Position numbers and translations under genes: made by a program
In this document: one piece after another, positions 1-30,946 of the stretch
Layout: every line of letters starts with the position of its first letter
How positions within the stretch are numbered: position 1 is the stretch's first letter
Assembly: GCA_945889495.1 (NCBI GenBank)
Contig: CAMDBU010000006.1
Location: 506-64,505, forward strand
From: Syntrophobacter sp. SbD2
GTDB taxonomy: Bacteria; Desulfobacterota; Binatia; UBA9968
Length of the DNA: 64,000 bases
Direction of reading: 5' to 3'
The notes under the pieces: generated by a model
What the model was told of the DNA's origin: nothing
Seen by the model: the letters and a program-made list of their open reading frames with translations, nothing else
The model's database searches: none

Positions 1-742
<742 letters not shown>

Positions 743-13331: not shown

Positions 13332-16130
13332 ATGGACACACCCAAATATCAAAAAAGTGACCCGGCGATCCTCTTGTTAAACGAGATCGACATCCTATTG
13401 GCGCAGACGCGCTTGATGGAGTTGTATCTCAAGCAAGCCCAGGCCACCGCGGCCAACGAAAACGCCCGCATCCACGAACAGTACGAAACCGAGCTGACGG
13501 CGCTGCGCGCCGAGCTCGCCGACAAGGAACGGCAGCTCCAGCAAGCGCCGGCCATCGACCGCAATCTCACCGCGGTCGTCGAGCAACTGCAACGCGAGCT
13601 CAGCGAAAAACAGCAGTGGGTCGCCGGCCAGCACGCGGTATGGCAACGCTCCAGCGGCGAGATCGCCGCGCTGCAACAACGCATCACCCAACTCGAAGGC
13701 GAAAACCAAACCGCGCTCAACGCCGCCCGCGAAGCCAATGGGATCAGGGAAAGTCTGGTCGCCGATGTCAGCGCGCTCAACCGTGAACTGGAGAAAAACC
13801 GGCGCGAATTCGACCACCAGCAACTAACCGCGCGGCAACTCGAAAGCAGCCTACGCGAGCAGCTCCAACTGTTGCAAACCCAGCTCGCCGACAAACAAGC
13901 CTACGCCCTCACGAGCGACGACGAACTCGGCAAAGCCCGTCAAGAAATCGCCGCCCTGCGCCAACATCTGGGCTCCCTGCAAGCGCTCCAGGACGAACTC
14001 CAGGCCAATGCGACGCAATCGCTGGAGCTCGCCCAGGGCCGCTTCGAGGGCGAACTGGTCAGCCTGCGCGCGGCCTTGACCGAGCGCGATCGCTCGGTGG
14101 CCGAGAGCCAAGCCGCGCTGGTCGAGATCGAGCGCGGCCTGCGCGGTGAGATCGACCAGCTGCGCAATGAACTTGATCAAAAGCAAAACGCCTTGCGGCT
14201 GCGCGACGACGATATGCGCAGCGCCGGCGGCCAAATCGCCGCGCTCCAACAACGGCTCGCCGAGCTCGAACTCGCCCAGCGCCAAGCCGCCGCCGCCAAT
14301 GCCGAGAGTGAAAGCCGGCGCCGCGAGCTCGCCGAAGAAGTCGCCAACCTCCAGCATGAAGTGGAGGTCAAGGAAAAAGAGCTGGTCAACCGCTACGAAG
14401 CGGTGACCGCCGTCGAGCTCGCCTTGCATGGCCGCATTCAAGCGTTGCAACAGGAACTGTCGCGCGCCCACGAAGCCTCAGCCGGCCAAGAAGAGGAACT
14501 CGATCAGCAGCGCGCCGCCAGTGCGAACTTACAGAGCCGCATCGCCGAACTGGAACGCAGCCAAGCCGACACCACCCTGCTCGATGCCACCCGGCGCGAA
14601 CTGGAAAGCGATCTCAACCGCCTACGCGCCGACCTGGCGCAAAAAGAATATTTGTTAAGCGGCCGCGAGCGCGCCAGCGTTGAGTTCGAAGCGCGCGCCA
14701 GCGCCGAACTCGCCACCCTGCGCCAACAGCTGGAAGCCGAACGTGGCGCCACCGCCGAAGTCCACCGCGAAGTCGATCAAGCGCGCGCCGAACTCGCCGC
14801 CAGCCGCGACCAGCTCGAAGCCCAGCTCAAACAAAAGGACGATGAGATTGTTAGCCTGCGCGCCAATGCCAGCGGTCAAAGCGCCCAGCTGGCCCAGCAG
14901 GTCAGCGACTTGCAGACGCAACTGGCCGAGCGCGCGAGCGCGGTGGCCAGTCTCGAAGCGCGTCTCGGCGGTGAATTGGCCGCCTGGCACCAACAGTTGG
15001 CCCAAGAACGCAGCAGCGCCAGCCGGGCCAATGACGCGCTAGCGAATTTACAGGCCGAACTCACCACCCTTGGCGAACGCCACGACAGCGAGCGCCAAGC
15101 AAAAGATCAAGCATTAGCCAGCGCCAGCGCGCACAACGAGCAACTGGCCCAGCGGGTGAGCGAACTACAACTGGATTTGGTCGAGAAGCAGCTCCTGGCC
15201 GAGAGTCGGGGCGGCGAACTCGATCAGCTGCGTACCAGCGTCAGCCAGTTCAACGAACAGCTGAGCGACAATGCCGTGCGCCAAGCGCAATTGGATGACG
15301 AGCTCAACCGCTTGACCAGCGCCCGTGACGACGACGCGCGCCAGCAGACCGCCCTCGCAGTGCAGCTCGACCAAGCACGCGTTGCCAACGCCGCCATCCG
15401 CGCTGAACTGCAAGAGACCAAGAACCGCGGCGCTGAACTGGAAGCGCTGCTGGAAAGCCAGCACAGCGCCATGGCGGTGATGGAGACCGAACGCGCCCGC
15501 TTGCGCCAAGATCTCGACGAGCTCGACACGCGCCACCAGCAAAACTTGGCCGATGGCAGACAGGCGTTGACCAGCCTACGCAGTAACTTGGAAGCTGAAC
15601 TGAGCACACTGCGCGCTGAACTGCAGCAAAAAGCCTGGACCCTGGCGCAGCACCAGGCGAGCGTCGAAAATCTCGCCCAGGTGCACCGCGAGCAGATTCG
15701 TAAACTGGAAGCGCGTCTGCACGATCAACAGCCCAACACCGAAGCGTCTTCGCAAGCCGTCGAGCAGGCGCTCAGCCGCGCCAATGATTTGCAGCGCCAG
15801 GTGGAAGAACTGCAAACCGCCTTACATCAAGCCCAAGCCGCCGGCGCAAACCAGGCGGAACAAATTCGCCAGGAATACGCCGCCCGTTTGGAAGCGGCTA
15901 ACAATCAGCTGGCGGTCAAATCCGCCGAGCTCGTTAACAGCGGCGCGGTGCGCGCCAATGTCGAAGAATCCCTGCGCGCCGAACTGAGCCGGCTGCGCCG
16001 CGAAACCCAATCCCGCGCCGAAGCGCTGCAAAGCCGGGAAGAAGAGCTCAACCGCGTGCGCGGCGAAATGACCGCGGTGCAGAACCGCATCGTCCAGTTG
16101 CAGTCGGTGACCGCGCGCAGCGAAATATAG
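13332..16130 (+). CDS. giant coiled-coil protein, 5' portion (932 aa ORF) of a gene interrupted by the integrative element at ~16125; stop at 16128-16130 lies in element DNA
   Basis: pure heptad-rich low-complexity sequence (ELxxLRxEL... repeats), no ATPase motifs; frame continues seamlessly into 28499..29370 if 16125..28498 is removed. Confidence 0.8.
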   Translation: MDTPKYQKSDPAILLLNEIDILLAQTRLMELYLKQAQATAANENARIHEQYETELTALRAELADKERQLQQAPAIDRNLTAVVEQLQRELSEKQQWVAGQHAVWQRSSGEIAALQQRITQLEGENQTALNAAREANGIRESLVADVSALNRELEKNRREFDHQQLTARQLESSLREQLQLLQTQLADKQAYALTSDDELGKARQEIAALRQHLGSLQALQDELQANATQSLELAQGRFEGELVSLRAALTERDRSVAESQAALVEIERGLRGEIDQLRNELDQKQNALRLRDDDMRSAGGQIAALQQRLAELELAQRQAAAANAESESRRRELAEEVANLQHEVEVKEKELVNRYEAVTAVELALHGRIQALQQELSRAHEASAGQEEELDQQRAASANLQSRIAELERSQADTTLLDATRRELESDLNRLRADLAQKEYLLSGRERASVEFEARASAELATLRQQLEAERGATAEVHREVDQARAELAASRDQLEAQLKQKDDEIVSLRANASGQSAQLAQQVSDLQTQLAERASAVASLEARLGGELAAWHQQLAQERSSASRANDALANLQAELTTLGERHDSERQAKDQALASASAHNEQLAQRVSELQLDLVEKQLLAESRGGELDQLRTSVSQFNEQLSDNAVRQAQLDDELNRLTSARDDDARQQTALAVQLDQARVANAAIRAELQETKNRGAELEALLESQHSAMAVMETERARLRQDLDELDTRHQQNLADGRQALTSLRSNLEAELSTLRAELQQKAWTLAQHQASVENLAQVHREQIRKLEARLHDQQPNTEASSQAVEQALSRANDLQRQVEELQTALHQAQAAGANQAEQIRQEYAARLEAANNQLAVKSAELVNSGAVRANVEESLRAELSRLRRETQSRAEALQSREEELNRVRGEMTAVQNRIVQLQSVTARSEI

Positions 16131-16246
16131 CGGTGGTGGTTTTTACCGTTGTTTTTATTGATGTTTTTTAAGTGTAGTATAGTTTGTAGTATAGTACCAA
16201 CGCCGAAATAATATAATAATATCAATTACTTAGAGCGTTTTTTGCC

Positions 16247-16340
16247 TACCGCAAACCACCACAAATCTATTAAACGCGATCACCGTCACTTTGCGTAACA
16301 GTCACACACGCTGAGCATGTGTCTTTGAAAACGACACTTC
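16247..16340. repeat. ~85-bp direct repeat, copy A (copy B at 16733..16815), flanking the H-NS-like gene
   Basis: shared CCGCAAACCACC...ACTTTGCGTAAC(A/G)GTCACACACGCT...GTGTC-loop-GACAC. Confidence 0.7.
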
Positions 16341-16662
16341 AGCTTAAAACAGCAAACGACTCACGCTTTGTGCCAGCTTTCTCAGCAGCCGATAACCAAC
16401 GTGGCGCCGTACCACGTCCTGTCCACGTGTTGCCCTTGCCATCATCGTACTTAACTGCAACTTTCTCTCGTTTTTTGCCAGTAGTCTTTTTCGCAGTAGC
16501 CGCCTTACCGCCCATAGCAGCACGTAATTCTGCCAAAGTAATGTCGTTGGCACTCATCTGCTTGACGATGGCTTTGATGACTTTGCCACGCTTGCGACCA
16601 ATACGTTTTGCTTCTGCTAACAGCTTGGCGATCTGTGCTGCGATTTCCGTTGGTGATCTCAT
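16339..16662 (-). CDS. H-NS family nucleoid-associated protein (xenogeneic silencer-like)
   Basis: 107 aa; C-terminal AVKYDDGKGNTWTGRGTAPRWL matches the H-NS DNA-binding motif (YxxxxGxTWTGxGRxPxW). Confidence 0.75.
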   Translation of the reverse strand: MRSPTEIAAQIAKLLAEAKRIGRKRGKVIKAIVKQMSANDITLAELRAAMGGKAATAKKTTGKKREKVAVKYDDGKGNTWTGRGTAPRWLSAAEKAGTKRESFAVLS

Positions 16663-16732
16663 TATTACTTTGTAGTTTGTTAATGAATGGACTGTAGATA
16701 TTATATCGAATTGAATACTTTGGAATTGATTT

Positions 16733-16815
16733 TCCGCAAACCACCGTTGCCACCGTTACTTTGCGTAACGGTCACACACGCTACGCAAGTGTCGTTTTGA
16801 CACGACGCTTGCTAC
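16733..16815. repeat. direct repeat copy B (see 16247..16340)
   Basis: seen directly. Confidence 0.7.
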
Positions 16816-16866
16816 AACCACACATACTTTGCAATCCTCAACCGTCCAGCAACAGGACGGTCAGCA

Positions 16867-17241
16867 CTAAACCGTAGCTATTGTCTGCTGTGCTTTAACA
16901 AGTGCTTGCTGTGCTTTACGCTGTTGCTGCCGCGCCCGCTCCGCCGTCACAGCTTGTCCCGCACGTTTCGCTAGGGTTTTCAGCGATGCTACACGTTGCT
17001 GGTCGGGTGTCAGCGGTTTGATTGGCTTGATTGATTTGGGTTGTGCTTCAGTAACGCTGGCCGCTTCGCGTTCACGCTCAGCAGCCGATTCAAGCGTTCT
17101 TGCTATTAAATCATGCAACCACTTATCGTGTCGTGCCTTAATTGTACTAGGATGATTAGGTTGGATTTCATGTATACGCATTGGGTATTTAGCGACACAA
17201 GATTTTTCATGCAAATCTTCAACTACTACAAAAAACTTCAA
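16867..17241 (-). CDS. hypothetical protein, paralog of 21009..21236 (shared AKYPMR[IL]HEIQP...TPDQ[QR]RVA[ST]L motif)
   Basis: 124 aa; ~100 nt near-identical DNA shared with 21100..21215. Confidence 0.5.
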   Translation of the reverse strand: MKFFVVVEDLHEKSCVAKYPMRIHEIQPNHPSTIKARHDKWLHDLIARTLESAAEREREAASVTEAQPKSIKPIKPLTPDQQRVASLKTLAKRAGQAVTAERARQQQRKAQQALVKAQQTIATV

Positions 17242-18050
17242 TCGCAGTTCTTGTAATTGCGAGCTTTACACTCACGTGCAAGTTTTTGTGCCGCAGCTAT
17301 CTGCTGTGTTGTCATCTTTGCTGCAACTATGTCTCTGTTTTTTTCAGCGTCTGCATTACTTTTTACCGCAGCCAAGTTCCACCACATGTGTGCACGTACA
17401 TAATCTTGCACAACACCTCGCCCGTTTCCATACATGATGCCTAAATTGTATTGTGCACGAGCAAGACCTTGTGCCGCTGCCAACTTGTACAACTTCACCG
17501 CCTCTGCATAATCTTGCACAACACCTTGCCCATTTTGATACATGAAGCCTAAATTGCTTTGTGCATCAGCAAGACCTTGTGCCGCTGCCAATCTATACAA
17601 CTTGACTGCTTCTGCGTAGCTTTGTACAACACCCTTCCCTACGTAATACATTACACCTAATTCATGCTGTGATAATGAGAGGCCTTGTATTGCAGACAAT
17701 TTTAATAAACGAACCGCCTCCGTATAATCCTGTACAACTCCTTTTCCATCAATTAGCATTTCAGCTAATTCAAACTGGGCAAGCATGTGACCTTGAGCTA
17801 TTGCCAAGTTAAACCACCGTATCGCTTCTGGGTAGTCCTGCTTTACGCCGAACCCATATTTGTACATCGCCCCAATCTGAGTTTGTGAATATGCATCGCC
17901 TCGTGCTGCTGCAATTTTAAATTTCTTAAGTGCCATCGCATAGTCTTCTTTTGCGAACGCAGCATCACCATCCTCAACTTCACCCGCCCAAACAACAGCA
18001 CTGACTACAATTGCCAGTGTGACAAAAATAGTTCGCAATATCGGCATCAC
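17238..18050 (-). CDS. Sel1-like repeat protein with N-terminal signal peptide
   Basis: 270 aa; repeated A..G.A.AQ..LG.MY..G.GV.QDY.EA..W motifs. Confidence 0.8.
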   Translation of the reverse strand: MMPILRTIFVTLAIVVSAVVWAGEVEDGDAAFAKEDYAMALKKFKIAAARGDAYSQTQIGAMYKYGFGVKQDYPEAIRWFNLAIAQGHMLAQFELAEMLIDGKGVVQDYTEAVRLLKLSAIQGLSLSQHELGVMYYVGKGVVQSYAEAVKLYRLAAAQGLADAQSNLGFMYQNGQGVVQDYAEAVKLYKLAAAQGLARAQYNLGIMYGNGRGVVQDYVRAHMWWNLAAVKSNADAEKNRDIVAAKMTTQQIAAAQKLARECKARNYKNCD

Positions 18051-18227
18051 TTATTTCCCTTGTAGTGACCACATCGTACATTACGCGCTTGTGCCACTAC
18101 CAAAGCACAAGCACTACAATGCGTTAGCTATTCTGATAGCGCTGCCGACTAAACTTTACATAGCTAGCGTAAATATAACCAAGATTGGAGCGAGGGCAGC
18201 ACAAGCAGTCGCTTGATATGAAATCAC

Positions 18228-18476
18228 CTAATTAACTTTTATAACCACATCGCAATTTCGGGCTTCGCTATTTGTGAGGTAAGAACAATTAATATTTCCA
18301 TTTATTACCTCGCCTTTTATTAGTGCACCATCTTGTTTTACCCAATCTTGCTCCTTCGTTCCGCATACTTTGTTTAATGCCTGGCGAATTGCTTTTGGGG
18401 AAACATTTTTATTTACTGTTATCAAAGCAGTTTGGAGCTGATTTCCCTGCTTCCATTGAGCGTTGACACCCACCAC
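18228..18476 (-). CDS. small hypothetical protein
   Basis: 82 aa ORF in AT-rich cargo; no recognisable motif. Confidence 0.3.
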   Translation of the reverse strand: MVGVNAQWKQGNQLQTALITVNKNVSPKAIRQALNKVCGTKEQDWVKQDGALIKGEVINGNINCSYLTNSEARNCDVVIKVN

Positions 18477-18605
18477 ATCTATACCGAGAAAATTATTTAT
18501 TTTATTTAATGCACCATTGTCAGTAAATTCAGATTATCTAGCTCGCGATCCCACCGCTTTGGATAGGCTTAAACTAAATAGCACTTTTTGAATAAGGTCA
18601 TGTTG

Positions 18606-20288
18606 CTACTGCTTTCGATATTTAGTGATCGAAAAAGCTGGTGCAATAGGACCCACTACGTGGGCAGTTTGGTAGACATAATCTTTATCTAAAAAATAGA
18701 CAGTGAATGCATCAGGACTCCCCACTTCGCCGTAGTCAACAAAAATGGTTCTAAACGTGTCATCAGAAATTTCGTCGAGGATTTTTTTATAAGATTCTGA
18801 AACAGCTTTCATTTTTTGGTAGTCAGCTGCTGAAATTACCTTTTGTTGCAACCATCCAGTGAGGCTATTCAAATCTTTATTTATATCTGTCGCTAATTCT
18901 TTTTTAGTGATTTTTCCTTTGTAATAAGCTAAACATTTTTTTTGCGCGGCAGTTTCATTTTTCACCCATTGACAATCTCCAAACTTCGTTTCGCTAATCG
19001 TCAATTTCTCAGCACTGCCTGACCGCCACACCCCAAGCCATCGATTATTAATGGATAGCGAATCCTGAGGCGCCGTCGCGGTTGCTGGCTGAGCAAGTAA
19101 ATATGACATGCCGGCTTCTTCAATAGCGCCATAAAAACTTTGCTGAAGGAATTTACCTAAACAATCTTGATCATTACAGTCAACCTTATAAACCCCTGAG
19201 TATGCTGTTTTATGGTCAAGTCGGCGTTTAGTTGCATTCTCTTCAGCGTATATATTAAGTCTTCTAATTGCCCATGCAATATTCTTAAAGTCTTCACGTG
19301 CACAGATTAATTGCAATCCTTTGTCACTGATATCACTGCAATTAGGCGGAAGAACATCCGCGTACGACGCGCTCTCTTTCATATGTTGCAAAATTAAATT
19401 GTAGTGTGATGTTTTGATATTCCAATTCTCTAAAGGTTTATTGTTATCATTCTTACTGGTTACACCTTCTCTGACCCCGTTTGATTCACCCTTAGTTTCT
19501 GGCTTTGCATCTGTGCGCTTAGCTTCTGTTGGTGGTGCCTGAACCACTTTATTGATATTCCTAACAAATGAAAGTGTGTCTTCATGACCATCGTTAGTTG
19601 TTAGTTTTAAAGTAAAGCTACCGTCCTTTGAGCTTATTTTTCTAAGTGCCCATACGACTGAAGTATTATTGTTTACGATGAGGCTCAGAATATCACTGCG
19701 GCTATCCCATTCCATTACTTTAACAGGAATCACTTTCCCATTAATTTCTATTGATTTATTGTCGCTTTTCAAGCTTATAACAACAGTGGCCTGATCAGTA
19801 TCACCCTTCCAGACACCGCTTAAATCATCTAAGGGATCACTTCCTTTAAAATCTATAAAGGAAACGATAGCAATTGTAGCGATTATCGATGCGATTCCAA
19901 TATACGCCAACTTATTTTCATCGGATTTTTCTTTTACGAATATCTTTTTGTAATAGTCTATGTTAACCCATCCACCAAAAACCAATGGCATAATAAAATA
20001 AGTTGATGCGTTTAAGTATTGCAATAATTTTATTTCTGGAAAGACTGATTCTAATAATGCTGTCAAAACACAACCGAGGGTTATTATCCCAAAGAGGAAC
20101 AGCCCCTTCTTCGACATTCCTAAGTGTACGTAATAAAAAACACCGAAAATAAATCCCCAAATATTGAATGCCGCCGTCACTCTTTCGCTTAAAGATAAGT
20201 TCTTAACTAAGGGGAGTTTCACACCACCGGCCTTGTCAATTAGATCAAATCTTTTTTTCCATTTACCACTAATTTCTTGCTCGGACAT
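18606..20288 (-). CDS. large membrane/extracytoplasmic protein with N-terminal DUF2628-like membrane module
   Basis: 560 aa; N-terminal NIWGFIFGVFYYVHLGMSKK resembles DUF2628; very AT-rich codon usage. Confidence 0.55.
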   Translation of the reverse strand: MSEQEISGKWKKRFDLIDKAGGVKLPLVKNLSLSERVTAAFNIWGFIFGVFYYVHLGMSKKGLFLFGIITLGCVLTALLESVFPEIKLLQYLNASTYFIMPLVFGGWVNIDYYKKIFVKEKSDENKLAYIGIASIIATIAIVSFIDFKGSDPLDDLSGVWKGDTDQATVVISLKSDNKSIEINGKVIPVKVMEWDSRSDILSLIVNNNTSVVWALRKISSKDGSFTLKLTTNDGHEDTLSFVRNINKVVQAPPTEAKRTDAKPETKGESNGVREGVTSKNDNNKPLENWNIKTSHYNLILQHMKESASYADVLPPNCSDISDKGLQLICAREDFKNIAWAIRRLNIYAEENATKRRLDHKTAYSGVYKVDCNDQDCLGKFLQQSFYGAIEEAGMSYLLAQPATATAPQDSLSINNRWLGVWRSGSAEKLTISETKFGDCQWVKNETAAQKKCLAYYKGKITKKELATDINKDLNSLTGWLQQKVISAADYQKMKAVSESYKKILDEISDDTFRTIFVDYGEVGSPDAFTVYFLDKDYVYQTAHVVGPIAPAFSITKYRKQ

Positions 20289-25020: not shown

Positions 25021-25092
25021 GTTTTGTGTTCCTTTGTGTAGTGGTTTTTTTTGTGTATGTCGAAAAGGGGAGTTCCCTCCCCCTTTCGGTCA

Positions 25093-25878
25093 TTAAGCTA
25101 CTTTTGCGAAAACATCCGCGTTGGCCGCCATCCCCAACAAATCGCTAGCCTCTTTGTTGAGCGCCTGATCTGCATCTTTTTGACCAGCGCGAACTTTTGC
25201 CATGCGTATCAGCAGTGCCTGAACGAGAGCTTCGTTGATGTCGGACAAAACACCCACAATAGAAACCATGCCGTCTGGTGCAGGTTTAGCCAGCAAAACA
25301 GCGTAATCCCCAGTGACGCCCGCCAGCGACAGCGTTGCCAATGGAGTAATTGTCGCTAGTTCCACGTTCGCTTTGACTTCGCCAGTAGCCGAAACAATCG
25401 CAGCACGTTTCGCCTGTGCCGCTTCTGACACCACCATATCGCGTTTGATTTCTTCGATGCCGCCTTGTTCTGCGATGTAAGCGGGCAGATCGTTAGCGGT
25501 GATAGCTTTAGAAATCGCCGCTTTGAGCACGTAGGCATAGCCATGCGCACGTTTGCGATCTGAGCTGAATACGAAACGCACGAACATCGTGAGTGTCGTC
25601 GTGTTGCTCTGCACTTTGACTCCATCCGCTGTAAGCCGCGCACAAAGCTCATTGCGCAGCGTCTTACGGCTGTTGCCATCAGCGTTTACGAACTTGTTTT
25701 GGAATACGTCCAAGCAGCCCGCAAGCAACGCGTACAGCCCATCATTAGCTTTCTTGTAGTCAGTTATTTCCCACTGCTGACGACGCTCAGACAGAGCGTC
25801 CAGAGACTGGACGATGCCATTTGCAATAATCATGTTGTCGTTCGACGGGGTAAAGGCGGTTTTGACAGATTTGCTCAT
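25093..25878 (-). CDS. hypothetical protein upstream of the AAA+ ATPase (likely start ATG 25876-25878 with GGAGA RBS)
   Basis: 262 aa; ORF track version starts 37 codons earlier. Confidence 0.5.
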   Translation of the reverse strand: MSKSVKTAFTPSNDNMIIANGIVQSLDALSERRQQWEITDYKKANDGLYALLAGCLDVFQNKFVNADGNSRKTLRNELCARLTADGVKVQSNTTTLTMFVRFVFSSDRKRAHGYAYVLKAAISKAITANDLPAYIAEQGGIEEIKRDMVVSEAAQAKRAAIVSATGEVKANVELATITPLATLSLAGVTGDYAVLLAKPAPDGMVSIVGVLSDINEALVQALLIRMAKVRAGQKDADQALNKEASDLLGMAANADVFAKVA

Positions 25879-26017
25879 TTTGATTCTCCGATTTAAAAGT
25901 CGGCGCGATGCTGGTGGCGGAATTGCCAGAAGTTGTATCGCGCTGACGAATAGGATTAGATCACTAAGAACTAATAAATCAGTCAACAACCAATAATCAG
26001 TTATTATCTGTAGACAT

Positions 26018-26953
26018 ATGAAAGAACAATTGCTTCCGTGGTACCTCCGTAGCGCGGATTTCTACAAACCGAACTGGCACACACGGCCTACGATTGGCTT
26101 TGAGTTGCTGTTTGAGTTTTTGCGGCTCAGCCCTAGCTATGAACTGGCCCGCAAAGCCAGCATGGAAGGGCTAAGCACTGCTGACCAGCTACTATTGCCG
26201 CCAGATTTTGAGCAGGTAAAAAACACCTATCAGCTCTTGGGCGATGTGCAAAAAATCTTGTTTCGGCAATGGTGGATCGCAAGAGGACTCAGCACCTTTG
26301 GCAATCCCTACGCACGCCCAAAATTGCACGCAGTCGCACAACTGGCAGGTGGGAAAGATATTTCGGCTGAAACCCTCGTAGGTAACTTCGAAAGTTACCT
26401 AGCTGGAGCGCGTCATGAGGAAGGGCTAGTGGATAGCGTGCTCATCGCAGTCCCTTTGGGCCTACGTCAATCAGAAATCCGCAGACAGATGTCCGCTATT
26501 CTTACTGCCTATTCAGGCCATGAGCAAAACTCACGGCAAAGTCCATTGATAAAATTGCAAGGCAAGCGGCTGCGATCAAAGGTGCTGTTCAATGGCCTAC
26601 GACTGCTTTGGTTTAAAGCTGCAAAACCCCAATGGGAACACTGGCGGCTGGGTGCTAAATCAAGATTCAGCGTCACCTATTCCAAAGAACTCAATCCTGC
26701 CAATCCCCGTAGAGTGGTCAGCACGCTGGAATCGTACGATAGAGAGATGATGACAAAAATCACCAATCGCGCGCTGAAGAAATTCGAATCCATTGCGGAG
26801 AACGCAGCAAGAGGGCGATTCCCTTCGCAAGACCCAGTCCATCCAGTAGATTTTCAGTATCCGTTTCTTGCCAAACGAATACAGCGCAAAAACACATGGG
26901 AACAAGAGGAGAAAGCACGGTTACTTGCGGCATTCCGCAGCCGTCGGCATTAG
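26018..26953 (+). CDS. hypothetical protein
   Basis: 311 aa ORF adjacent to integrase; no motif recognised. Confidence 0.5.
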   Translation: MKEQLLPWYLRSADFYKPNWHTRPTIGFELLFEFLRLSPSYELARKASMEGLSTADQLLLPPDFEQVKNTYQLLGDVQKILFRQWWIARGLSTFGNPYARPKLHAVAQLAGGKDISAETLVGNFESYLAGARHEEGLVDSVLIAVPLGLRQSEIRRQMSAILTAYSGHEQNSRQSPLIKLQGKRLRSKVLFNGLRLLWFKAAKPQWEHWRLGAKSRFSVTYSKELNPANPRRVVSTLESYDREMMTKITNRALKKFESIAENAARGRFPSQDPVHPVDFQYPFLAKRIQRKNTWEQEEKARLLAAFRSRRH

Positions 26954-27101
26954 TGCAAGACCGTCCCGTTGCTGGACGCTTGCTGAACGTAACAGCCCAG
27001 CACGACCCAGCCCACTCACGTATTCGCCCCTATTTCACCGTCGGTTCGGCGGTGATTTTGGTTTGGTGCTGCCGCAGAGGGCTGTCGTGCAAATCCGAAA
27101 C

Positions 27102-28370
27102 TCAGGCTTTCTGCCGCTTCTTCGTCGGTTTCATCGACTGCAATTTAGCCACGTTCATTTCGTTCTGGTAATGACTGCCGTAGAAACGTGTGATCATTTC
27201 CGCGCTAGTTCTGGCATTTTGCGCCAACGTATTCCAGTCGATGTTGTCGCCCTTAGTAATCCGAAACATGATTGCTGTGTGACGCAGGCTATACAACGTG
27301 CGCACCGTACTTTTCGCATCCAGTCGCAAATCAGTCACTTCTAGCAAGTGGTAAAACAGTCGCACCAGCTGTACGTAAGCGTAGTCTCTGTTGCGATGCT
27401 CTGGCATAAACACGTAATCGTCGTCTTTAGCCAATTTCCGTTCAGCTTGATATTCTCGTTGCCGTTCATACACTTCAACGGCGATGGGCATACTGATGAA
27501 GGGCTTGTTGTGCTTTTTGGTGGTTGGGGGTGACAAGCGCAAATACGTGTTGTCCTTTCGCACTACTGCCACATGCGAATGCTTCAGCACCTTAATATCT
27601 GATGGCCGCACGTAAGTGTTGACCATAAACAAGATCAAGTTATGCAACTCTTGTGTAAATCGCATCCGCCGCTCTGCCTTACCTTGCGCATTACGCACAA
27701 CGATCTCAGTGCCTACTAATGCCTTCGCTTTGTTATGCAGTTTCGTGTATTCCCAACTATTAAAATAACCACGCGGGTCATCTTCCATAGTGATGGTGGG
27801 AAACGCGGGTAAGTGCGGGATGATTTGCTTGCGGTGGGCGTGCTTTAACACTTTACGCAGCAGCGATTCGTGTAACTTAAGCGTTGCGACCTTCAGCCCT
27901 TTTTCCGTCAGCGTGTTTAAGTAAGTCTCTATAACCGTGTAATCAATCTGCCCCACATCGTATGTGCGGAAATACGGCAGCATGTGTACACGCAGACGGC
28001 TTTGTTCGTTGACGTTGATGCTTGCGCTGAGTTCCCCGCGCTTGATGCGTGACTCTTGCAACTTCAGCATCTCTTTCGCGCAAACCTCAAAGCGCGAATT
28101 TTTACCAATAACTAAACCACCCGTCTTACGCACAAGCAGCTCTTCGTAAAAGGCAATGGCTGCCTTAAACGCTTCGTTCTTCTTATCAGTTTTTGTAGTG
28201 CGTTTGAAAATTCTTCCGCTATCGTAAAAACGTGCCCAATAAAATGGGGAGGCGTCGATGCGGAATATGACTAGCTTGCTTGGATAATTCGGTACAGATT
28301 CAACAGTAGAGGGAATAGGAACTGTTCTGTGCCTACTAATTACCAAAGCTGTTTCATGCTTAGTATCCAT
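27102..28370 (-). CDS. int: tyrosine-type site-specific integrase (P4-like, ~420 aa)
   Basis: C-terminal LYSLRHTAIMF...Y catalytic box; N-terminal arm-binding-like region; located at element end next to tRNA-like att fragment. Confidence 0.88.
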   Translation of the reverse strand: MDTKHETALVISRHRTVPIPSTVESVPNYPSKLVIFRIDASPFYWARFYDSGRIFKRTTKTDKKNEAFKAAIAFYEELLVRKTGGLVIGKNSRFEVCAKEMLKLQESRIKRGELSASINVNEQSRLRVHMLPYFRTYDVGQIDYTVIETYLNTLTEKGLKVATLKLHESLLRKVLKHAHRKQIIPHLPAFPTITMEDDPRGYFNSWEYTKLHNKAKALVGTEIVVRNAQGKAERRMRFTQELHNLILFMVNTYVRPSDIKVLKHSHVAVVRKDNTYLRLSPPTTKKHNKPFISMPIAVEVYERQREYQAERKLAKDDDYVFMPEHRNRDYAYVQLVRLFYHLLEVTDLRLDAKSTVRTLYSLRHTAIMFRITKGDNIDWNTLAQNARTSAEMITRFYGSHYQNEMNVAKLQSMKPTKKRQKA

Positions 28371-28446
28371 GCTTGTAGTATAGCTTATACTATACTACAA
28401 AATCAACCACGTAAATTCCTAACTGATTGAATTTACGTGGTTTTTT

Positions 28447-28498
28447 TGGTGGAGACGAGGAGGATCGAACTCCCGACCTTCGCATTGCGAAAGCGAAG
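28447..28498 (-). tRNA. 3' half of a tRNA-Ala(CGC)-like sequence (CCA end, T-arm GGGAG-TTCGATC-CTCCT, acceptor 3' strand CGTCTCC with U70, A73 discriminator); fragment only, att-site derived, not a functional tRNA
   Basis: manual fold of reverse complement; no matching 5' half (no D-arm, no complementary acceptor strand) downstream. Confidence 0.6.
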
Positions 28499-29370
28499 CT
28501 CGGGAAATCAGCCAAGCCAAGAGCGGGCTGGAAAACGAACTCACCAGCCTACGCGGCGAGGTTCAACAAAAAGCCGCCGCGGTAGCCCAACAACAGGCAG
28601 CGATGGATGAGCTGGCGGCCAACTACCGGCACCAGGTGGAAGAGCTCGAAGCCAATCTCAGCGCCCATCAACAGGCCAGCGAACAGCGCCGCCGCGAAGT
28701 CGATCAAGCGCAGGCACAGATCGATCAATTGCACGGCCGGATCGCTGAGTTGCAAACCGAGTTGCAGCACGCCGAAGCGAACGCCAAGCGCGCCGCCACG
28801 CTCGAACAGCGCGCCGGCGCAAATTCCGCGCTTGAGCAAGCGCTGCGTAGCGAGATCGACCGGCTCATCGGCGAGGCTCAGGAACGCAATCAGATCTTGC
28901 AAGATCGCAACGAAGAATTGGTCAGAGTTAAAACCGATCTCGACGGCTTGACCGAGCGTTTCACCCAGCTGGAGTCCCAGGCGGTCCAAGCCGAAAAGAA
29001 CGCCGATGGTGAAACCGAGAGCATGCAGACGGAATATCAAGCCCAGCTGGCGCTGCTGCAAGCCGAGCTCAGCCAGAAGGAATGGGCGCTGGAAGAGCGC
29101 CAAGCGATCATCGCCGGCTTGGAGCAGGAACATCGCCACGAGCTCGAAGCCTTGCGCCAACAGTTGGCGGCCAAGGAGGTCGCGCTCACGCCCGCGCCAG
29201 GCGCCTTCGTGTTGGGCGATCCCAACCTGACCGACGAGCAGCGCGACAAACTCAAAAAGCTCGACGACATTGAGAGTGAATTACGCAATGGCGACGCCCT
29301 CGGCACTAGCCTGCTGAACCGCCGCCGTTGGCCCGGCGGCTTCGGGTCGAAACGCCGTTGGCGTTCCTAA
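28499..29370 (+). CDS. 3' portion of the interrupted giant coiled-coil gene (ORF track ATG at 28603)
   Basis: in-frame coiled-coil translation begins immediately after the AGCGAA repeat (…SEAREISQAKSGLENELTSLRGEVQQK…); repeats resemble those of 13332..16130. Confidence 0.7.
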
Positions 29371-29412: not shown

Positions 29413-30138
29413 ATGATACAAACAGAACGGGTAACCAGCGGCATCAAGGGTTTGGACCCATTGATCGAAGGCGGCTTTCCCAAGGGTCGATCGATTTTGG
29501 TGACCGGTGAGCCGGGCACCGGCAAGACCATCTTTGCCTTGCAGTTTCTCGCCGACGGGTTGGCGCGCGGCGAGAAAGCGATCTTCGTCACCGCCGACGA
29601 AGGACCGCTCGACGTGCTCGAACAAGCGGCTTCCATGGGCTGGGACTTCGAGCGCTATGTCGAGACCAAAGAGTTGGCAATCCTCAACGCCGGGACCTAT
29701 TTAAGTTCGCTGCCCGGCGCCGGCCGCGAGCGCCAGATCGATCTGCAAAAAGCGGTCAGCGATTTGGCCGCCTTCGTCAATCAAATCGGCGCCTCGCGCT
29801 TGGTCCTCGATCCGGCTGGGCCGTTCGTGCTGTTACGCGACAGCGCGGCGCGCATCCAGGATCAAACCCGGCTGTTGATTAAATTACTGCGCACCTCGAT
29901 GAATACCACCAATCTGCTCACTTCCTACGCCGTGCCGCGCACCGGCGAGCGCAGCATGCATGGCATCGAGGAATACATGGTCGCCGGCGCCATCGTGCTG
30001 GAAATGATCTGGCACAGCGAGGGCGGGCTCGGCCGCAGCTTGATCGTCGAAAAAATGCGCTGCACCAACGTCAAACCAACCCAACTCGAGTTCGACATCA
30101 TCAAAGGCGAGGGTCTGGTGATCCAACCGGCCAGTTAG
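29413..30138 (+). CDS. KaiC-like/RecA-superfamily single-domain ATPase 1
   Basis: 241 aa; Walker A GEPGTGKT, Walker B RLVLDP. Confidence 0.8.
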   Translation: MIQTERVTSGIKGLDPLIEGGFPKGRSILVTGEPGTGKTIFALQFLADGLARGEKAIFVTADEGPLDVLEQAASMGWDFERYVETKELAILNAGTYLSSLPGAGRERQIDLQKAVSDLAAFVNQIGASRLVLDPAGPFVLLRDSAARIQDQTRLLIKLLRTSMNTTNLLTSYAVPRTGERSMHGIEEYMVAGAIVLEMIWHSEGGLGRSLIVEKMRCTNVKPTQLEFDIIKGEGLVIQPAS

Positions 30139-30163
30139 CGCAGCATCGAAGAATCGCTTTCTA

Positions 30164-30946
30164 ATGAGTAACGAACCGATCTCCACCGGCATCGCCGGCC
30201 TCGATATTTTATTGCACGGCGGCTTTAGCCGCGGCCGCTCCTACTTATTTGCCGGCGAAGCCGGCAGCGGCAAGACCATCGCCTGTTTGCAATTTGTCGC
30301 CGCCCGGCTCAAAGCCGGCGACAAGGCGGTCTATGTCACGGTCGACGAGCGGCCGTCGGAAATTTTCGAAGCCGCCGCCGCCATCGGTTGGAACCTGCAA
30401 CCCTATATTCAAGACAAACAATTGATCGTCCTCGACGCCTCGCCCTACTTCGGCGCCCGCGGCGGCGGCGAAAAGGGCATCGATCCGCAAAAGATCGTCG
30501 CCGATCTCGGCAACTATGTCAGACGGCTGGGCGCGGCGCTGCTGATCATCGATCCGGTGACGCCGTTTAGCCTGCCGCCCGATGCCAGCAGTCCGGCCCA
30601 GGACCAGGCGCGCTCGCTGATCCAACTGGTGCAAACCCAGATCGGCGTCACCAACTTGCTCACCGCCCAGCGCGCTCCAGGCGGCGCGGAGCCCACCACC
30701 ATCGCCATCGAAGAACATTTGGCCAGCGGCGTGTTGATCTTCAAGTTGACCGAAACCGCGGATGGCTATGAGCGCAGCGTCACCATCAAGAAAATGCGCG
30801 GCGTCGCGGTCGCGCCGAAAAAATATCCGTTCACTCTGGAACAGGATCGCGGCATCGTCATCGACCTGCCCGATCACGCGCCGACCGCGCTAAGCAACCC
30901 AGCCCCGATGTTCGAATGCTTCGACCCGAGCAAGCCGAGTAACTAG
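30164..30946 (+). CDS. KaiC-like/RecA-superfamily single-domain ATPase 2
   Basis: 260 aa; Walker A GEAGSGKT, Walker B LLIIDP; 26-bp gap to upstream paralog. Confidence 0.8.
   Translation: MSNEPISTGIAGLDILLHGGFSRGRSYLFAGEAGSGKTIACLQFVAARLKAGDKAVYVTVDERPSEIFEAAAAIGWNLQPYIQDKQLIVLDASPYFGARGGGEKGIDPQKIVADLGNYVRRLGAALLIIDPVTPFSLPPDASSPAQDQARSLIQLVQTQIGVTNLLTAQRAPGGAEPTTIAIEEHLASGVLIFKLTETADGYERSVTIKKMRGVAVAPKKYPFTLEQDRGIVIDLPDHAPTALSNPAPMFECFDPSKPSN

What the first reader, a model, noticed from the sequence alone, without database searches (positions are those of the whole stretch)
13332..30946. Operon of a ~1,200-aa pure coiled-coil protein plus two paralogous single-domain KaiC/RecA-like ATPases: uncharacterised system, here disrupted
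Once the insertion is removed, the operon is a coiled-coil gene of ~3.7 kb. It has no Walker motifs or globular domain that I can see. Two KaiC-like ATPases of 241 and 260 aa follow tightly, with gaps of 43 bp and 26 bp, and ClpB lies immediately downstream. I do not recognise this trio as a described system. The architecture loosely recalls SMC-like or filament-plus-ATPase modules. In this strain the first gene is split by the mobile element, so the module may be inactive, or expressed as two halves.
Basis: inference. Interest (0 to 1): 0.8.

Follow-up and report, generated by a model that had tools for sequence, protein, structure and literature searches.

The report
Sigma-54 coiled-coil plus KaiC-like ATPase operon
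An uncultured soil bacterium (phylum Binatota) carries a conserved, uncharacterised operon for a giant rod-shaped coiled-coil protein and one or two clock-protein-like (KaiC-type) ATPases; here a 12.4-kb mobile island has split the first gene and probably silenced the operon.

Summary
Removing a 12,367-bp island (16126-28492) restores, in frame, a 1,223-aa heptad-repeat protein identical to the intact allele in sister metagenome contigs. Two paralogous single-domain KaiC-type ATPases follow (241 and 260 aa, 40% identical), then clpB.

New findings:
- The locus belongs to Binatia/Binatota, and the gene order is kept in every related lineage recovered.
- A near-consensus sigma-54 promoter, TGGCATGTTTTTGGCT (13237-13252), is conserved upstream, with repeat and IHF-like blocks before it. 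It is the only such match in 64 kb.
- The rod varies from about 316 to 1,879 aa. Only about 45 N-terminal residues and about 170 C-terminal residues are conserved, ending in an Arg/Trp-rich tail.
- The first ATPase is the constant core (73-92% identity). The second ATPase is optional, and one lineage lacks the rod gene.
- clpB has its own conserved promoter-like block.
- More distant relatives pair the ATPase with receiver-domain proteins.

No Pfam, NCBIfam or PADLOC family, and no paper, covers the rod protein or the operon. It is neither SMC-like nor a circadian clock. My best guess, at low confidence, is an inducible coiled-coil scaffold or tether switched by a KaiC-like ring ATPase. In this strain the ATPase genes are cut off from their promoter.

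The parts
13113..13147 (+). Conserved upstream blocks that could be an enhancer-binding-protein site: palindrome GACA-TTTT-TGTC (13113-13124) and two TGTCCAG copies (13121-13127 and 13141-13147) 20 bp apart.
   Evidence: The blocks are conserved in the alignment of 12 upstream regions, while the surrounding sequence has diverged. They are also present in L033. The window sequence was read. Their function is inferred.
13200..13214 (+). Conserved block TAACTAGCTGATATT between the repeats and the promoter. Its reverse complement resembles the IHF consensus WATCAANNNNTTR with one mismatch.
   Evidence: Conservation is shown. The match to the IHF consensus is my own reading from memory and was not tested.
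13237..13252 (+). Sigma-54 (RpoN)-type -24/-12 promoter TGGCATGTTTTTGGCT, 80 bp upstream of the start codon of the coiled-coil gene.
   Evidence: It is the only match to TGGCAYGNNNNTKGCW in 64 kb on both strands, against 0.08 expected. It occurs once per locus, always upstream of the operon, in 17 distinct related sequences. It is invariant in the alignment.
13332..16125 (+). 5' part of the coiled-coil gene (codons 1-931 plus one base). In this strain it is truncated after two foreign-encoded bases by a TAG at 16128-16130.
16120..16125 (.). Left copy of the 6-bp crossover core GCGAAA (attL).
   Evidence: Alignment of both junctions with the empty site in L002.
16126..28492 (.). 12,367-bp low-GC integrative island, counted with the right core copy at 28487-28492. 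Cargo: a Sel1-repeat protein, two DUF2628/zinc-ribbon proteins, a DUF6641 protein, a 188-aa catalytic-domain-only tyrosine recombinase, an AAA ATPase and two proteins with no family match.
   Evidence: GC profile, Pfam, empty site in L002, L003, L005 and L006 and the same insertion in L001. No match among phage records.
27102..28370 (-). Island integrase (422 aa, tyrosine recombinase) at the right end of the island.
   Evidence: The Pfam Phage_int_SAM_5 and Phage_integrase hits are weak. By tblastn it is 26-28% identical over about 90% of its length to annotated site-specific integrases, E down to 6e-25.
28447..28492 (-). 46-nt copy of the 3' half of a tRNA, from the anticodon loop TTCGCAA (anticodon CGC, Ala) through the T arm and an acceptor strand with U70 to CCA. 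This is the island's attP-derived tRNA segment. The crossover core lies in the anticodon loop.
   Evidence: Read from the sequence. ARAGORN finds no complete tRNA in the window. The identity as tRNA-Ala is my inference.
28493..29370 (+). 3' part of the coiled-coil gene. It holds the conserved C-terminal module and the tail RRRWPGGFGSKRRWRS. The listed ORF starts at an internal ATG at 28603.
   Evidence: The AF2 model of the last 204 aa shows a helical hairpin, a disordered linker, a helix and a disordered tail.
29413..30138 (+). KaiC-like ATPase A (241 aa), single RecA-like domain of the CI type. It is the conserved core of the module. An AAGGA ribosome-binding site lies 7 nt upstream.
   Evidence: PF06745 E=2e-56. 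It aligns end to end with KaiC CI. It is 73-92% identical across Binatia. The ribosome-binding site was read.
30164..30946 (+). KaiC-like ATPase B (260 aa), a paralogue 40% identical to A, with a C-terminal acidic-aromatic tail (PMFECFDPSKPSN). It is optional across lineages.
   Evidence: PF06745 E=7.5e-50. It matches KaiC CI. Orthologues are 47-95% identical. It is absent in L007, L017 and L018.
31044..31071 (+). Conserved promoter-like block of clpB: TTGACA-N16-TTAACT, preceded by TG. It marks clpB (31096-33723) as a neighbouring unit and not part of the operon.
   Evidence: TTTCTTGACA...TGCTTA is conserved in 12 of 13 aligned clpB upstream regions, including L025 and L007. The sequence was read. 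The consensus scan did not call it, because its second position is T.

Best explanation
Shown or read directly from sequence. This is a sigma-54-type operon found in the uncultured phylum Binatota.
- Gene 1 encodes a cytoplasmic heptad-repeat rod. Its length is evolutionarily elastic, about 316 to 1,879 aa.
- Three parts of gene 1 are conserved: an N-terminal helix of about 45 aa (..P..LLLNEIDILLAQxRLMELYLKQAQ), a C-terminal module of about 170 aa, and a basic Arg/Trp tail (RRWxxGFGWKRRW).
- Genes 2 and 3 encode single-domain KaiC-type ATPases with CI-like sequence. Both have an intact Walker A, Walker B, catalytic Glu and Arg finger.
- The promoter region and ATPase A are the invariant core.

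Inferred mechanism, at low confidence.
- An unknown enhancer-binding protein bound at the conserved upstream repeats induces the operon.
- The rod forms a parallel coiled-coil tether or scaffold. A rod of about 1,150 residues would be roughly 170 nm long.
- The Arg/Trp tail attaches the rod to an anionic surface, most likely the membrane.
- The conserved C-terminal module docks a ring of ATPase A, or of A plus B.
- The ring's ATP-bound and ADP-bound states switch the assembly of the scaffold, or what its distal N-terminal helix holds. This would resemble the single-domain KaiC-like FlaH/ArlH, which binds the C-terminal domain of the coiled-coil scaffold FlaX.

State in this strain.
- A 12.4-kb integrase island whose attP carries a tRNA-Ala 3' half has recombined at a 6-bp look-alike site inside gene 1.
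- Gene 1 is truncated at codon 932.
- Both ATPase genes are now separated from their only recognisable promoter by 12.4 kb. Most of the listed ORFs in that stretch lie on the opposite strand.
- The module is therefore probably silent.
For: Operon and promoter:
- The genes share a strand with gaps of 42 and 25 bp, and no promoter-like site was found in 28400-34200.
- There is a single sigma-54-type match in the window, against 0.08 expected.
- That motif is invariant in the 12 aligned upstream regions and occurs once per locus in 17 distinct related sequences.
- The whole regulatory region is retained directly upstream of ATPase A in L033, which lacks the rod gene.

Linkage of the rod gene and the ATPase gene:
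- It is seen in L002, L007, L011-L020, L022, L024, L040, L041 and L044.
- More distant KaiC-like genes (43-47% identity) are also preceded by a coiled-coil ORF ending ...GRWKVR, and these are not next to clpB.

Rod properties:
- Heptad periodicity.
- Conserved termini and tail.
- Tandem repeats of about 159 aa in L024.
- In L007 the rod is replaced by a Pro-rich linker.

ATPases:
- Catalytic motifs were read. ATPase A aligns end to end with KaiC CI. ATPase B's best match is also KaiC CI.
- ATPase A is conserved about as strongly as ClpB.

Precedents for a KaiC-like ATPase working with a coiled coil:
- FlaX-FlaH (PMC5019145).
- The coiled-coil register switch of Rhodobacter sphaeroides KaiC (PMC10076222).

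Disruption:
-.
Against: - No physical interaction between the rod and the ATPases was tested or predicted.
- L033 keeps both ATPases without the rod gene. L025 has a 50%-identical ATPase with receiver-domain partners in place of the rod gene. The ATPases can therefore work without this rod.
- Membrane binding by the tail is only an analogy with Arg/Trp-rich peptides. The tail could bind nucleic acid or an acidic protein surface instead.
- The parallel orientation of the rod is inferred from tandem repeats, not shown.
- The C-terminal model comes from a single sequence (pLDDT 75, pTM 0.5). It has no significant structural neighbour.
- No enhancer-binding-protein gene lies in the window.
- Whether Binatia encode RpoN was not checked.
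- All evidence comes from one uncultured phylum. Conserved gene order there partly reflects shared ancestry.
Confidence: 0.4

Rival explanations
1. The module is a signalling device, and the ATPases are the whole machine. One or two single-domain KaiC-like proteins would form a non-circadian nucleotide-driven switch or timer, in effect a KaiC split into separate genes. The coiled-coil protein would be a dispensable, lineage-specific adaptor, localisation factor or output substrate, not a structure that the ATPases remodel.
For: - The promoter and ATPase A are the invariant parts. L033 lacks the rod gene yet keeps both ATPases and the promoter.
- In L025, a 50%-identical ATPase sits at the same genomic position. 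It is followed by a receiver-KaiC fusion and a receiver-histidine kinase.
- In L027-L029 a KaiC-like gene is followed immediately by a receiver-KaiC fusion.
- In L026 two KaiC-like genes lie among single-domain response regulators.
- KaiC-like ATPases have been proposed as signal-transduction hubs in archaea. I know this from the title of Makarova et al. 2017, which several papers found cite. I did not read that paper.
Against: - The termini of the rod protein are under clear purifying selection, and the gene is retained as the first cistron in nearly all lineages.
- The ATPase domain of the receiver-KaiC fusions is only distantly related and is not an orthologue of ATPase B.
- No kinase, response-regulator or DNA-binding output gene lies in the Binatia operon.
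Confidence: 0.3
2. The module belongs to protein quality control or the stress response and works with ClpB. The sigma-54-induced coiled-coil protein and KaiC-like ATPases would act with the adjacent disaggregase, for example as a stress-induced scaffold in the manner of PspA.
For: - clpB lies immediately downstream on the same strand in every Binatia locus. This includes L025, where the partner genes differ.
- The sigma-54 promoter with an IHF-like site, driving a coiled-coil protein, resembles the psp operon by analogy. This rests on my own knowledge.
- Vipp1, PspA and ESCRT-III hairpins appear among the fold matches, but none is significant.
Against: - clpB has its own conserved promoter-like block.
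- The whole region (CNNM, glyoxalase, aminotransferase ... clpB, MFS, dinB, hemE, hemH) keeps its gene order across the phylum, so adjacency may be inherited.
- The more distant pairs of a coiled-coil gene and a KaiC-like gene are not next to clpB.
- There is no PspA_IM30 Pfam match.
- No fold match has E below 0.07.
Confidence: 0.1
3. The module is an SMC-like or DNA-repair system. The rod would bind DNA through its basic tail, and the RecA-superfamily ATPases would act on DNA.
For: - The ATPases have the RecA-superfamily fold, with weak matches to RecA, RadA, RadB and DnaB.
- The tail is strongly basic (pI 12).
- recD2 lies upstream and dinB downstream in the region.
- There are weak matches to the coiled-coil regions of SMC, Rad50, LmuB and JetC.
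Against: - The best matches by far are to KaiC CI (E=1e-46). RecA scores near its Pfam cut-off of 27 bits, 28.0 for ATPase A and 19.2 for B.
- The rod has no ABC head halves and no hinge. Its SMC score is 58.8 against a cut-off of 567.
- The PADLOC hits cover only coiled-coil segments.
- recD2 and dinB are separated from the operon by unrelated genes and belong to other transcription units.
Confidence: 0.07
4. There is no functional unit. The coiled-coil gene and the ATPase genes are merely neighbours kept together by shared ancestry within one phylum.
For: - All strong evidence comes from Binatia, where long-range gene order is conserved.
- Exceptions exist in L033 and L025.
Against: - The genes share a strand with a gap of 13-113 bp. 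A single conserved promoter lies upstream, and no promoter-like site or strong terminator lies between the genes.
- An analogous pairing occurs in a more distant clade in a different genomic context.
Confidence: 0.05

Closest known systems
ArlH/FlaH with the scaffold ArlX/FlaX (archaellum motor)
   Same: A single-domain KaiC-like RecA-fold ATPase partnered with a coiled-coil scaffold protein. [quoted passage not shown]
   Different: - This locus is bacterial, not archaeal, and has no ArlI, ArlJ or archaellin genes.
- The NCBIfam ArlH scores are 38.9 and 35.8 against a cut-off of 215.
- The rod is 5-8 times longer than FlaX, has no transmembrane helix, and is unrelated in sequence.
Cyanobacterial and proteobacterial KaiC (circadian or hourglass oscillator)
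   Same: - It matches the same Pfam family, PF06745.
- Both ATPases' best match is the CI domain, and ATPase A aligns with it end to end. The Walker A, catalytic Glu and Arg finger are conserved.
- Rhodobacter sphaeroides KaiC uses a coiled-coil bundle as an allosteric element (PMC10076222).
   Different: - Here there are two separate single-domain genes, not a fused CI-CII protein.
- The residues at the position of the CII phospho-sites are Glu-Glu, as in CI.
- No kaiB or kaiA gene lies within 10 kb.
- The coiled coil is a separate giant protein.
psp operon (PspF, sigma-54, PspA)
   Same: A sigma-54 promoter with an upstream activator region and an IHF-like site drives a cytoplasmic coiled-coil protein that has a candidate membrane-binding element. 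The comparison concerns regulation and general logic only, and rests on my own knowledge.
   Different: - There is no PspA_IM30 match, and the structural similarity is not significant.
- The partner ATPases are of the KaiC/RecA type and are encoded in the operon. They are not a AAA+ activator.
Bacterial coiled-coil-rich cytoskeletal proteins (crescentin, FilP, Scy, Ccrp)
   Same: Long heptad-repeat rods with short non-coiled ends and lineage-specific length variation. This rests on my own knowledge. A review of such proteins in cyanobacteria appeared (PMC7766704), but I did not read it.
   Different: - Those proteins are not encoded with dedicated ATPases.
- They show no detectable sequence relationship to this rod protein.
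- The Pfam Filament hit is only E=0.0064, 16.6 bits against a cut-off of 40.
SMC, Rad50, MukB and JetC/LmuB-type proteins
   Same: A very long coiled coil associated with ATP hydrolysis.
   Different: - In those proteins the ATPase is an ABC head split between the two ends of the same polypeptide, which folds back on itself.
- Here the termini carry no nucleotide-binding motifs. The ATPases are separate RecA-type proteins. The rod expands by head-to-tail repeats.
Integrative islands that target tRNA genes (tyrosine integrases crossing over in the anticodon loop)
   Same: The integrase gene lies at one end, next to an attP-derived copy of a tRNA 3' half. A short direct repeat flanks the element. 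An empty site exists in sister genomes.
   Different: The island is inserted in a protein-coding gene, at a 6-bp core (GCGAAA) that resembles the anticodon-loop region. It is not in a tRNA gene.

Membership tests
KaiC/RecA-like ATPase domain (Pfam PF06745) | Significant full-length match to the family profile, above the gathering score. | tested here: met
   ATPase A scores 191.4 bits and ATPase B 169.9 bits against a cut-off of 26.6, covering profile positions 1-229 of 231 and 1-227 of 231.
KaiC/RecA-like ATPase domain (Pfam PF06745) | Catalytic motifs: Walker A GxxGxGKT, a Walker B Asp, a catalytic Glu after strand 2, and an Arg finger in the K-x-R-G/C motif. | tested here: met
   Read from the translations. 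ATPase A has GEPGTGKT, RLVLDP, FVTADE and EKMRC. ATPase B has GEAGSGKT, LLIIDP, YVTVDE and KKMRG. ATPase A's motifs align with KaiC CI FVTFEE and KLRG/KFRG; ATPase B's were assigned by eye. ATPase activity itself was not testable.
Circadian-clock KaiC (TIGR02655 / PRK09302) | Two tandem RecA-like domains (CI and CII) in one polypeptide of about 500 aa. | tested here: not met
   The proteins are 241 and 260 aa with one domain each. TIGR02655 scores are 91.6 and 97.3 against a cut-off of 546. PRK09302 scores are 131.3 and 123.5 against 408.
Circadian-clock KaiC (TIGR02655 / PRK09302) | A Ser/Thr autophosphorylation pair in a CII-type domain. | tested here: not met
   ATPase A aligns over its full length only with CI. 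The corresponding residues are Glu-Glu (GIEEY), as in CI (GVEEF). ATPase B has IAIEEH.
Circadian-clock KaiC (TIGR02655 / PRK09302) | An adjacent kaiB gene, with or without kaiA. | tested here: not met
   No KaiB or KaiA Pfam family appears among the called genes within 10 kb in L001-L010 and L020-L024.
ArlH/FlaH | Score above the NCBIfam ArlH cut-off, and a location in an archaellum gene cluster. | tested here: not met
   Scores are 38.9 and 35.8 against a cut-off of 215. The neighbours are a coiled-coil gene, an aminotransferase gene and clpB.
SMC / Rad50 / MukB-type coiled-coil ATPases | N-terminal Walker A and C-terminal Walker B/signature halves of an ABC head at the ends of the coiled-coil protein. 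| tested here: not met
   There is no SMC_N or other P-loop match. The TIGR02168 score of 58.8 against a cut-off of 567 covers coiled-coil regions only. The conserved termini are a 45-aa helix and a helical module with a basic tail.
SMC / Rad50 / MukB-type coiled-coil ATPases | An antiparallel fold-back of the rod around a central hinge. | not testable with these tools
   No multimer prediction was available. The head-to-tail 159-aa tandem repeats in L024, and the complete loss of the rod in L007, argue against a paired two-arm design. This is an inference.
PspA / IM30 / Vipp1 (ESCRT-III superfamily) | A match to PF04012, or a significant structural match to the ESCRT-III hairpin fold. | tested here: not met
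   No PF04012 hit at E<=0.01. The best Vipp1 or PspA Foldseek hits have E=0.17-0.7 and TM 0.24-0.35.
Sigma-54-dependent promoter | GG at -24 and GC at -12 with exact spacing, in a TGGCAC-N5-TTGCW-like element placed upstream of the gene. | tested here: met
   TGGCATGTTTTTGGCT at 13237-13252 differs from the consensus at 2 of 11 positions. It is the single match in the window, against 0.08 expected. It is conserved in all related loci.
Sigma-54-dependent promoter | Dependence on RpoN and on an enhancer-binding protein bound upstream. | not testable with these tools
   Conserved repeat blocks lie about 100 bp upstream. No enhancer-binding-protein gene is in the window. The presence of rpoN in the genome was not examined.
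Integrative island with a tyrosine integrase that targets a tRNA gene | An integrase at one end, flanking direct repeats, and an empty site in related genomes. | tested here: met
   The integrase is at 27102-28370. GCGAAA is present at both junctions, and the empty site is in L002.
Integrative island with a tyrosine integrase that targets a tRNA gene | Insertion into the 3' part of a tRNA or tmRNA gene. | tested here: not met
   The target is codons 930-931 of the coiled-coil gene. There is no tRNA gene in the window. Only the island's own 46-nt tRNA 3' fragment is present.

The most novel reading that the evidence does not exclude
The rod and ATPases could form a new kind of ATP-driven cytoskeletal machine. 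A homo- or hetero-hexameric (A3B3-like) RecA-fold ring would engage the C-terminal helical hairpin of a length-programmable coiled-coil tether. This would resemble the way F1, V1 and FliI rings hold a coiled-coil stalk. Nucleotide state would be transmitted along, or would assemble and disassemble, a 0-270 nm rod that links the membrane (through the Arg/Trp tail) to a distal cargo (through the N-terminal helix). The whole device would be switched on by a dedicated sigma-54 activator.
Probability: 0.1. Interest if true: 0.85.

Novelty: new variant of a known kind. Interest (0 to 1): 0.55.

Why it matters
Single-domain KaiC-like ATPases are widespread, yet apart from the archaellum protein ArlH almost none has a known partner or role, especially in bacteria. 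This locus offers several things that make the question testable.

- It has a clear, conserved partner: a rod protein with sharply defined conserved ends.
- It has a recognisable regulatory input: a sigma-54 promoter with conserved upstream sites.
- It shows natural variation in rod length (0-1,800 residues) and in ATPase number (one or two).
- It includes a natural insertion mutant that coexists with the intact allele in the same kind of sample.

Together these give concrete experiments for finding out what a non-clock KaiC-like ATPase does in a major uncultured soil phylum. The island is also a clean example of a tRNA-targeting element inactivating a gene through a 6-bp pseudo-attachment site.

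Tried and rejected
- SMC-like reading: rejected. There are no head domains, and only coiled-coil-region matches far below the cut-offs.
- Anti-phage defence system: PADLOC gave only weak hits to coiled-coil or P-loop segments, and nothing for ATPase B.
- Canonical clock: rejected.
- 'The second ATPase goes with a long rod': I proposed this, when the three loci without ATPase B had short rods. I dropped it when L041 showed a short rod with both ATPases and L033 showed no rod with both ATPases.
- clpB as part of the operon: rejected, because clpB has its own conserved promoter-like block and the distant pairs are not next to clpB.
- Reaching beyond Binatia by protein search: the best 120 hits of all three word-index searches were saturated by Binatia sequences. 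The genome scan returned only 9 loci. The representative search showed the ATPase A clade collapsing into one full-length 50% cluster, with the next relatives at 47% identity or less. The metagenome scan with distant relatives supplied the outgroup contexts.
- Plasmid search with ATPase A: only two hits at about 30% identity to ordinary KaiC.
- Fold search of the C-terminal model: no significant neighbour.
- Island against phage records: no match.
- Search for an enhancer-binding-protein gene in the window by the GAFTGA, ELFGH and LFLDE motifs: none found.
- Literature searches: six queries found no description of this operon. The one paper mentioning both Binatota and KaiC was irrelevant.
- I did not use the second structure job. 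A monomer model of a RecA-fold ATPase would not bear on the open question, which is who binds whom.

Full report
**1. The observation**

- A 932-codon heptad-repeat ORF lies at 13332-16130. Its continuation runs in frame up to 29370. ORFs of 241 aa (29413-30138) and 260 aa (30164-30946) follow, and then clpB at 31096-33723.
- Between the two halves of the first gene the GC content falls from about 0.60 to 0.38-0.52.
- That stretch carries a 422-aa tyrosine integrase at its right end, a second truncated recombinase, and cargo genes with no link to the flanks.
- Sister metagenome contigs encode a 100% identical ATPase and hold an uninterrupted 1,223-aa gene (L002, L003, L005, L006). Another contig (L001) has the same insertion.
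- Aligning both junctions with the empty site shows the hexamer GCGAAA duplicated at 16120-16125 and 28487-28492. The inserted element is 12,367 bp. Excision restores ...VTARSESEAREISQ... in frame.
- The rod protein shows clear heptad periodicity (LIVMF autocorrelation peaks at 7, 14, 21 and 28). It has no Cys, 8 Pro, and no match that reaches any Pfam or NCBIfam cut-off.

**2. The island**

- The 46 nt at the right end (28447-28492, minus strand) read as the 3' half of a tRNA. The parts are an anticodon loop TTCGCAA (anticodon CGC), a variable loop AGGTC, a T arm GGGAG-TTCGATC-CTCCT, and an acceptor strand CGTCTCC with U70, then ACCA.
- That pattern fits tRNA-Ala. This is my reading. ARAGORN finds no complete tRNA in the window.
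- The layout, with the integrase next to an attP-derived tRNA 3' half and the crossover in the anticodon loop, is that of a tRNA-targeting island.
- Here the island recombined with a 6-bp look-alike site inside a coding sequence.
- The insertion is polymorphic among otherwise identical populations, so it is recent.

**3. Lineage and conservation**

- The nine genome-collection loci that encode relatives of ATPase A all come from MAGs. They are labelled Binatia, 'uncultured delta proteobacterium', Thermodesulfobacteriota or Limnocylindrales. Names attached to protein hits are mostly Candidatus Binatia or Binatota.
- The gene order is kept in all of them: CNNM transporter, glyoxalase (-), aminotransferase (-), coiled-coil gene, ATPase A, [ATPase B], clpB, MFS.
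- ATPase A is 73-92% identical across lineages. In most of the same loci ClpB is 84-93% identical and the aminotransferase 64-83%.
- ATPase B orthologues are 47-95% identical.
- In the 50%-identity representative library the ATPase A clade collapses to one full-length cluster. The next relatives are 47% identical or less.

**4. Anatomy of the rod protein**

- Length varies widely: 316 aa (L007), about 440 (L017, L018), 389 or more (L041), 1,108-1,441 (L002, L011, L016, L020, L022), about 1,600 (L013, L015, where frameshifts break the ORF in those MAGs), and 1,879 (L024).
- Three parts are conserved:
  - an N-terminal helix, ..P..LLLNEI(D/E)ILxxQxRLMELYxKQ(A/S)Q;
  - a C-terminal module, ..LRxEIDRLxxExxEKNxxLQxRNDELVRVKxExDxL...EFQAQLALLQAELSQKEWAL..;
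  - the tail RRWxxGFGWKRRW(K/R).
- In L007 the rod is replaced by a Pro-rich linker.
- In L024 the rod is built from head-to-tail repeats of about 159 aa, up to 65% identical to one another.
- Expansion by tandem repeats, and complete loss of the rod, are easy for a parallel rod and hard for an SMC-type fold-back. I therefore infer a parallel coiled coil with two functionally distinct ends.
- A single-sequence AF2 model of the last 204 residues gives a helical hairpin (helices 2-81 and 88-142), a disordered linker, a short helix and a disordered tail (pLDDT 75, pTM 0.5). It has no significant structural neighbour. The best E is 0.076, and the hits are generic hairpins such as V-ATPase stalk subunits, Vipp1/PspA and YscO/CdsO.
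- The tail has pI 12, while the protein as a whole and both ATPases are acidic.

**5. The ATPases**

- Both match PF06745 over the whole domain. Both find the CI domain of KaiC as best solved relative, with E=1e-46 and 4e-39.
- The Walker A, Walker B, catalytic Glu and Arg finger are intact in both.
- At the position of the CII phosphorylation pair, ATPase A has Glu-Glu, as CI does.
- They are far below the cut-offs for circadian KaiC and for ArlH. No kaiB or kaiA gene is nearby.
- ATPase B and its orthologues carry a C-terminal acidic-aromatic motif: MFECF, LEFFQLP, LEYFEP, MFEFFELP.

**6.

- I aligned the region between the aminotransferase gene and the coiled-coil gene from 12 loci. The 16-mer TGGCATGTTTTTGGCT is invariant within otherwise diverged sequence.
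- It fits the sigma-54 -24/-12 consensus (TGGCAC-N5-TTGCW) with exact spacing.
- It is the only match to a degenerate version of that consensus in the 64-kb window, against 0.08 expected.
- It occurs once per locus, always in this position, in the related loci.
- About 100 bp upstream lie conserved blocks: GACA-N4-TGTC overlapping TGTCCAG, a second TGTCCAG 20 bp further on, and then an IHF-like block TAACTAGCTGATWTT.
- In L033 the coiled-coil gene is absent, yet this whole regulatory region is retained directly upstream of ATPase A and B.
- The leftmost conserved block is the divergent sigma-70-type promoter of the aminotransferase gene (TTGAAA-17-TAGAAT).
- No enhancer-binding-protein gene is in the window.
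- clpB has its own conserved block (TTTCTTGACA-N..-TGCTTAAnTT) in 12 of 13 loci. I treat clpB as a separate unit.

**7. What the relatives say**

- At the same genomic position, L025 has a 50%-identical KaiC-like gene. It is followed by a receiver-KaiC fusion, a receiver-HisKA-HATPase kinase and clpB, with no coiled-coil gene.
- L027-L029 (36-41% identical to ATPase A) each have a KaiC-like gene followed within 0-2 bp by a receiver-KaiC fusion.
- L026 has two KaiC-like genes among single-domain response regulators.
- L034 and L039 (43-47% identical to ATPase A) are preceded by a different coiled-coil ORF ending ...GRWKVR(R). L031 is preceded by a partial coiled-coil ORF. None of the three is next to clpB.
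- This ATPase clade is therefore usually paired either with a second KaiC-like protein that takes phosphorelay input, or with a coiled-coil protein that has a basic Trp-containing tail.

**8. Interpretation**

What is shown: a conserved, sigma-54-type, three-cistron unit found in Binatota. Its constant core is the promoter region plus ATPase A, and it is disrupted in this strain.

What is inferred:
- The rod is a parallel tether or scaffold.
- The tail binds an anionic surface. I favour the membrane, by analogy with Arg/Trp-rich peptides, which is my own knowledge.
- The conserved C-terminal module, encoded immediately upstream of the ATPase genes, docks the ATPase ring.
- The nucleotide state of the ring switches the scaffold.

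There are two precedents for a KaiC-like ATPase working with a coiled coil. FlaH binds the C-terminal domain of the coiled-coil scaffold FlaX (PMC5019145). Rhodobacter sphaeroides KaiC has a coiled-coil register switch (PMC10076222).

The main rival is that the ATPases are a self-sufficient signalling switch and the rod is an accessory. The evidence for it is L033 and the receiver-domain contexts. The remaining rivals are less likely, for the reasons listed with each: coupling to ClpB, a DNA or SMC-like role, and mere inherited gene order.

**9. Consequence of the insertion**

- Gene 1 is truncated after residue 931, with one foreign codon added.
- The 255-aa C-terminal ORF and both ATPase genes now lie 12.4 kb from the only recognisable promoter. 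Most of the listed ORFs in between lie on the opposite strand, and no promoter-like site was found in 28400-34200.
- The module is probably silent here. That the intact and the disrupted alleles coexist suggests the module is dispensable under at least some conditions.

**10. Novelty**

- No curated family covers the rod protein, no paper describes the operon, and it is not a defence, SMC, Psp or clock system by the tests run.
- It is best filed as a new variant of the class 'KaiC-like ATPase plus partner'. It brings a new partner family and an unusually clear regulatory signature.
- All of it comes from uncultured organisms, and the mechanism is conjecture, which tempers the score.

Noticed in passing
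window 28447-28492 (-) with 16120-16125 and 28487-28492: The island carries the 3' half of a tRNA-Ala(CGC)-like gene as its attP remnant. It integrated off-target into a coding sequence at a 6-bp core (GCGAAA, or TTTCGC on the minus strand) that resembles the anticodon-loop region. The host sequence next to the core (TCGCT) even mimics 4 of the 5 bases of the anticodon stem.
   Followed up: partly
window 16126-28492: The island cargo has no obvious function. It includes a Sel1-repeat protein (17238-18050, -), two DUF2628 proteins, one of 560 aa (18606-20288 and 20373-20900, -), a zinc-ribbon protein (21258-21779, -), a DUF6641 protein (21918-22352, -), a 188-aa recombinase with only the catalytic domain (23612-24178, +), a 235-aa AAA ATPase (24313-25020, -) and two ORFs with no family match (25093-25989 -, 26018-26953 +). 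GC is as low as 0.385, which implies a donor very different from the host. No phage record matches.
   Followed up: partly
window 653-6577 (-): A DUF1156/D12-class adenine methyltransferase-like protein (653-2122) lies next to a 1,191-aa SNF2/ResIII helicase with a C-terminal NOV_C domain (3002-6577). This pairing looks like a restriction or defence locus. It is absent from this position in L002 and L007, where an Amdase gene lies upstream of recD2.
   Followed up: no
window 31044-31071; L007, L013-L025 and L033 upstream of clpB: A strongly conserved block TTTCTTGACA-N16/17-(TG)CTTAAnTT lies about 25-50 bp upstream of clpB in 12 of 13 Binatia loci. It is probably the clpB promoter, but the consensus scan misses it because the -10-like hexamer is TTAACT.
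   Followed up: partly
L025 7320-10471; L027 6974-8811; L028 6060-7929; L029 6998-8810: A recurrent two-gene module pairs a single-domain KaiC-like ATPase with an immediately following fusion of a receiver domain and a divergent KaiC-like (DUF7504-like) ATPase. In L025 a receiver-HisKA-HATPase kinase follows as well. It looks like a phosphorelay-controlled KaiC-like pair, and I found no description of it.
   Followed up: partly
L024 2469-8108: The 1,879-aa orthologue of the rod protein contains at least four head-to-tail repeats of about 159 aa. The motif ELEHGFRAR recurs at residues 784, 943, 1102 and 1261, and the repeats are up to 65% identical. Rod length therefore changes by recent tandem duplication.
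   Followed up: yes
L013, L015, L019 (coiled-coil gene); L019 (glyoxalase, ATPase A, clpB): In these 'MFD' MAG contigs the reading frames are broken by frameshifts, while the conserved C-terminal module continues in another frame. These are most likely long-read assembly errors, not pseudogenes.
   Followed up: no
window 12993-13021 (-): A sigma-70-type promoter, TTGAAA-17-TAGAAT, serves the divergently transcribed aminotransferase gene. It is conserved across the Binatia loci as ATTCTA...TTTCAAA on the plus strand.
   Followed up: partly
P0133, P0144 (representative proteins): Some relatives of ATPase A (about 39% identical) carry N-terminal zinc-ribbon repeats and an acidic linker fused to the KaiC-like domain. 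This is another input-domain variant of the clade.
   Followed up: no
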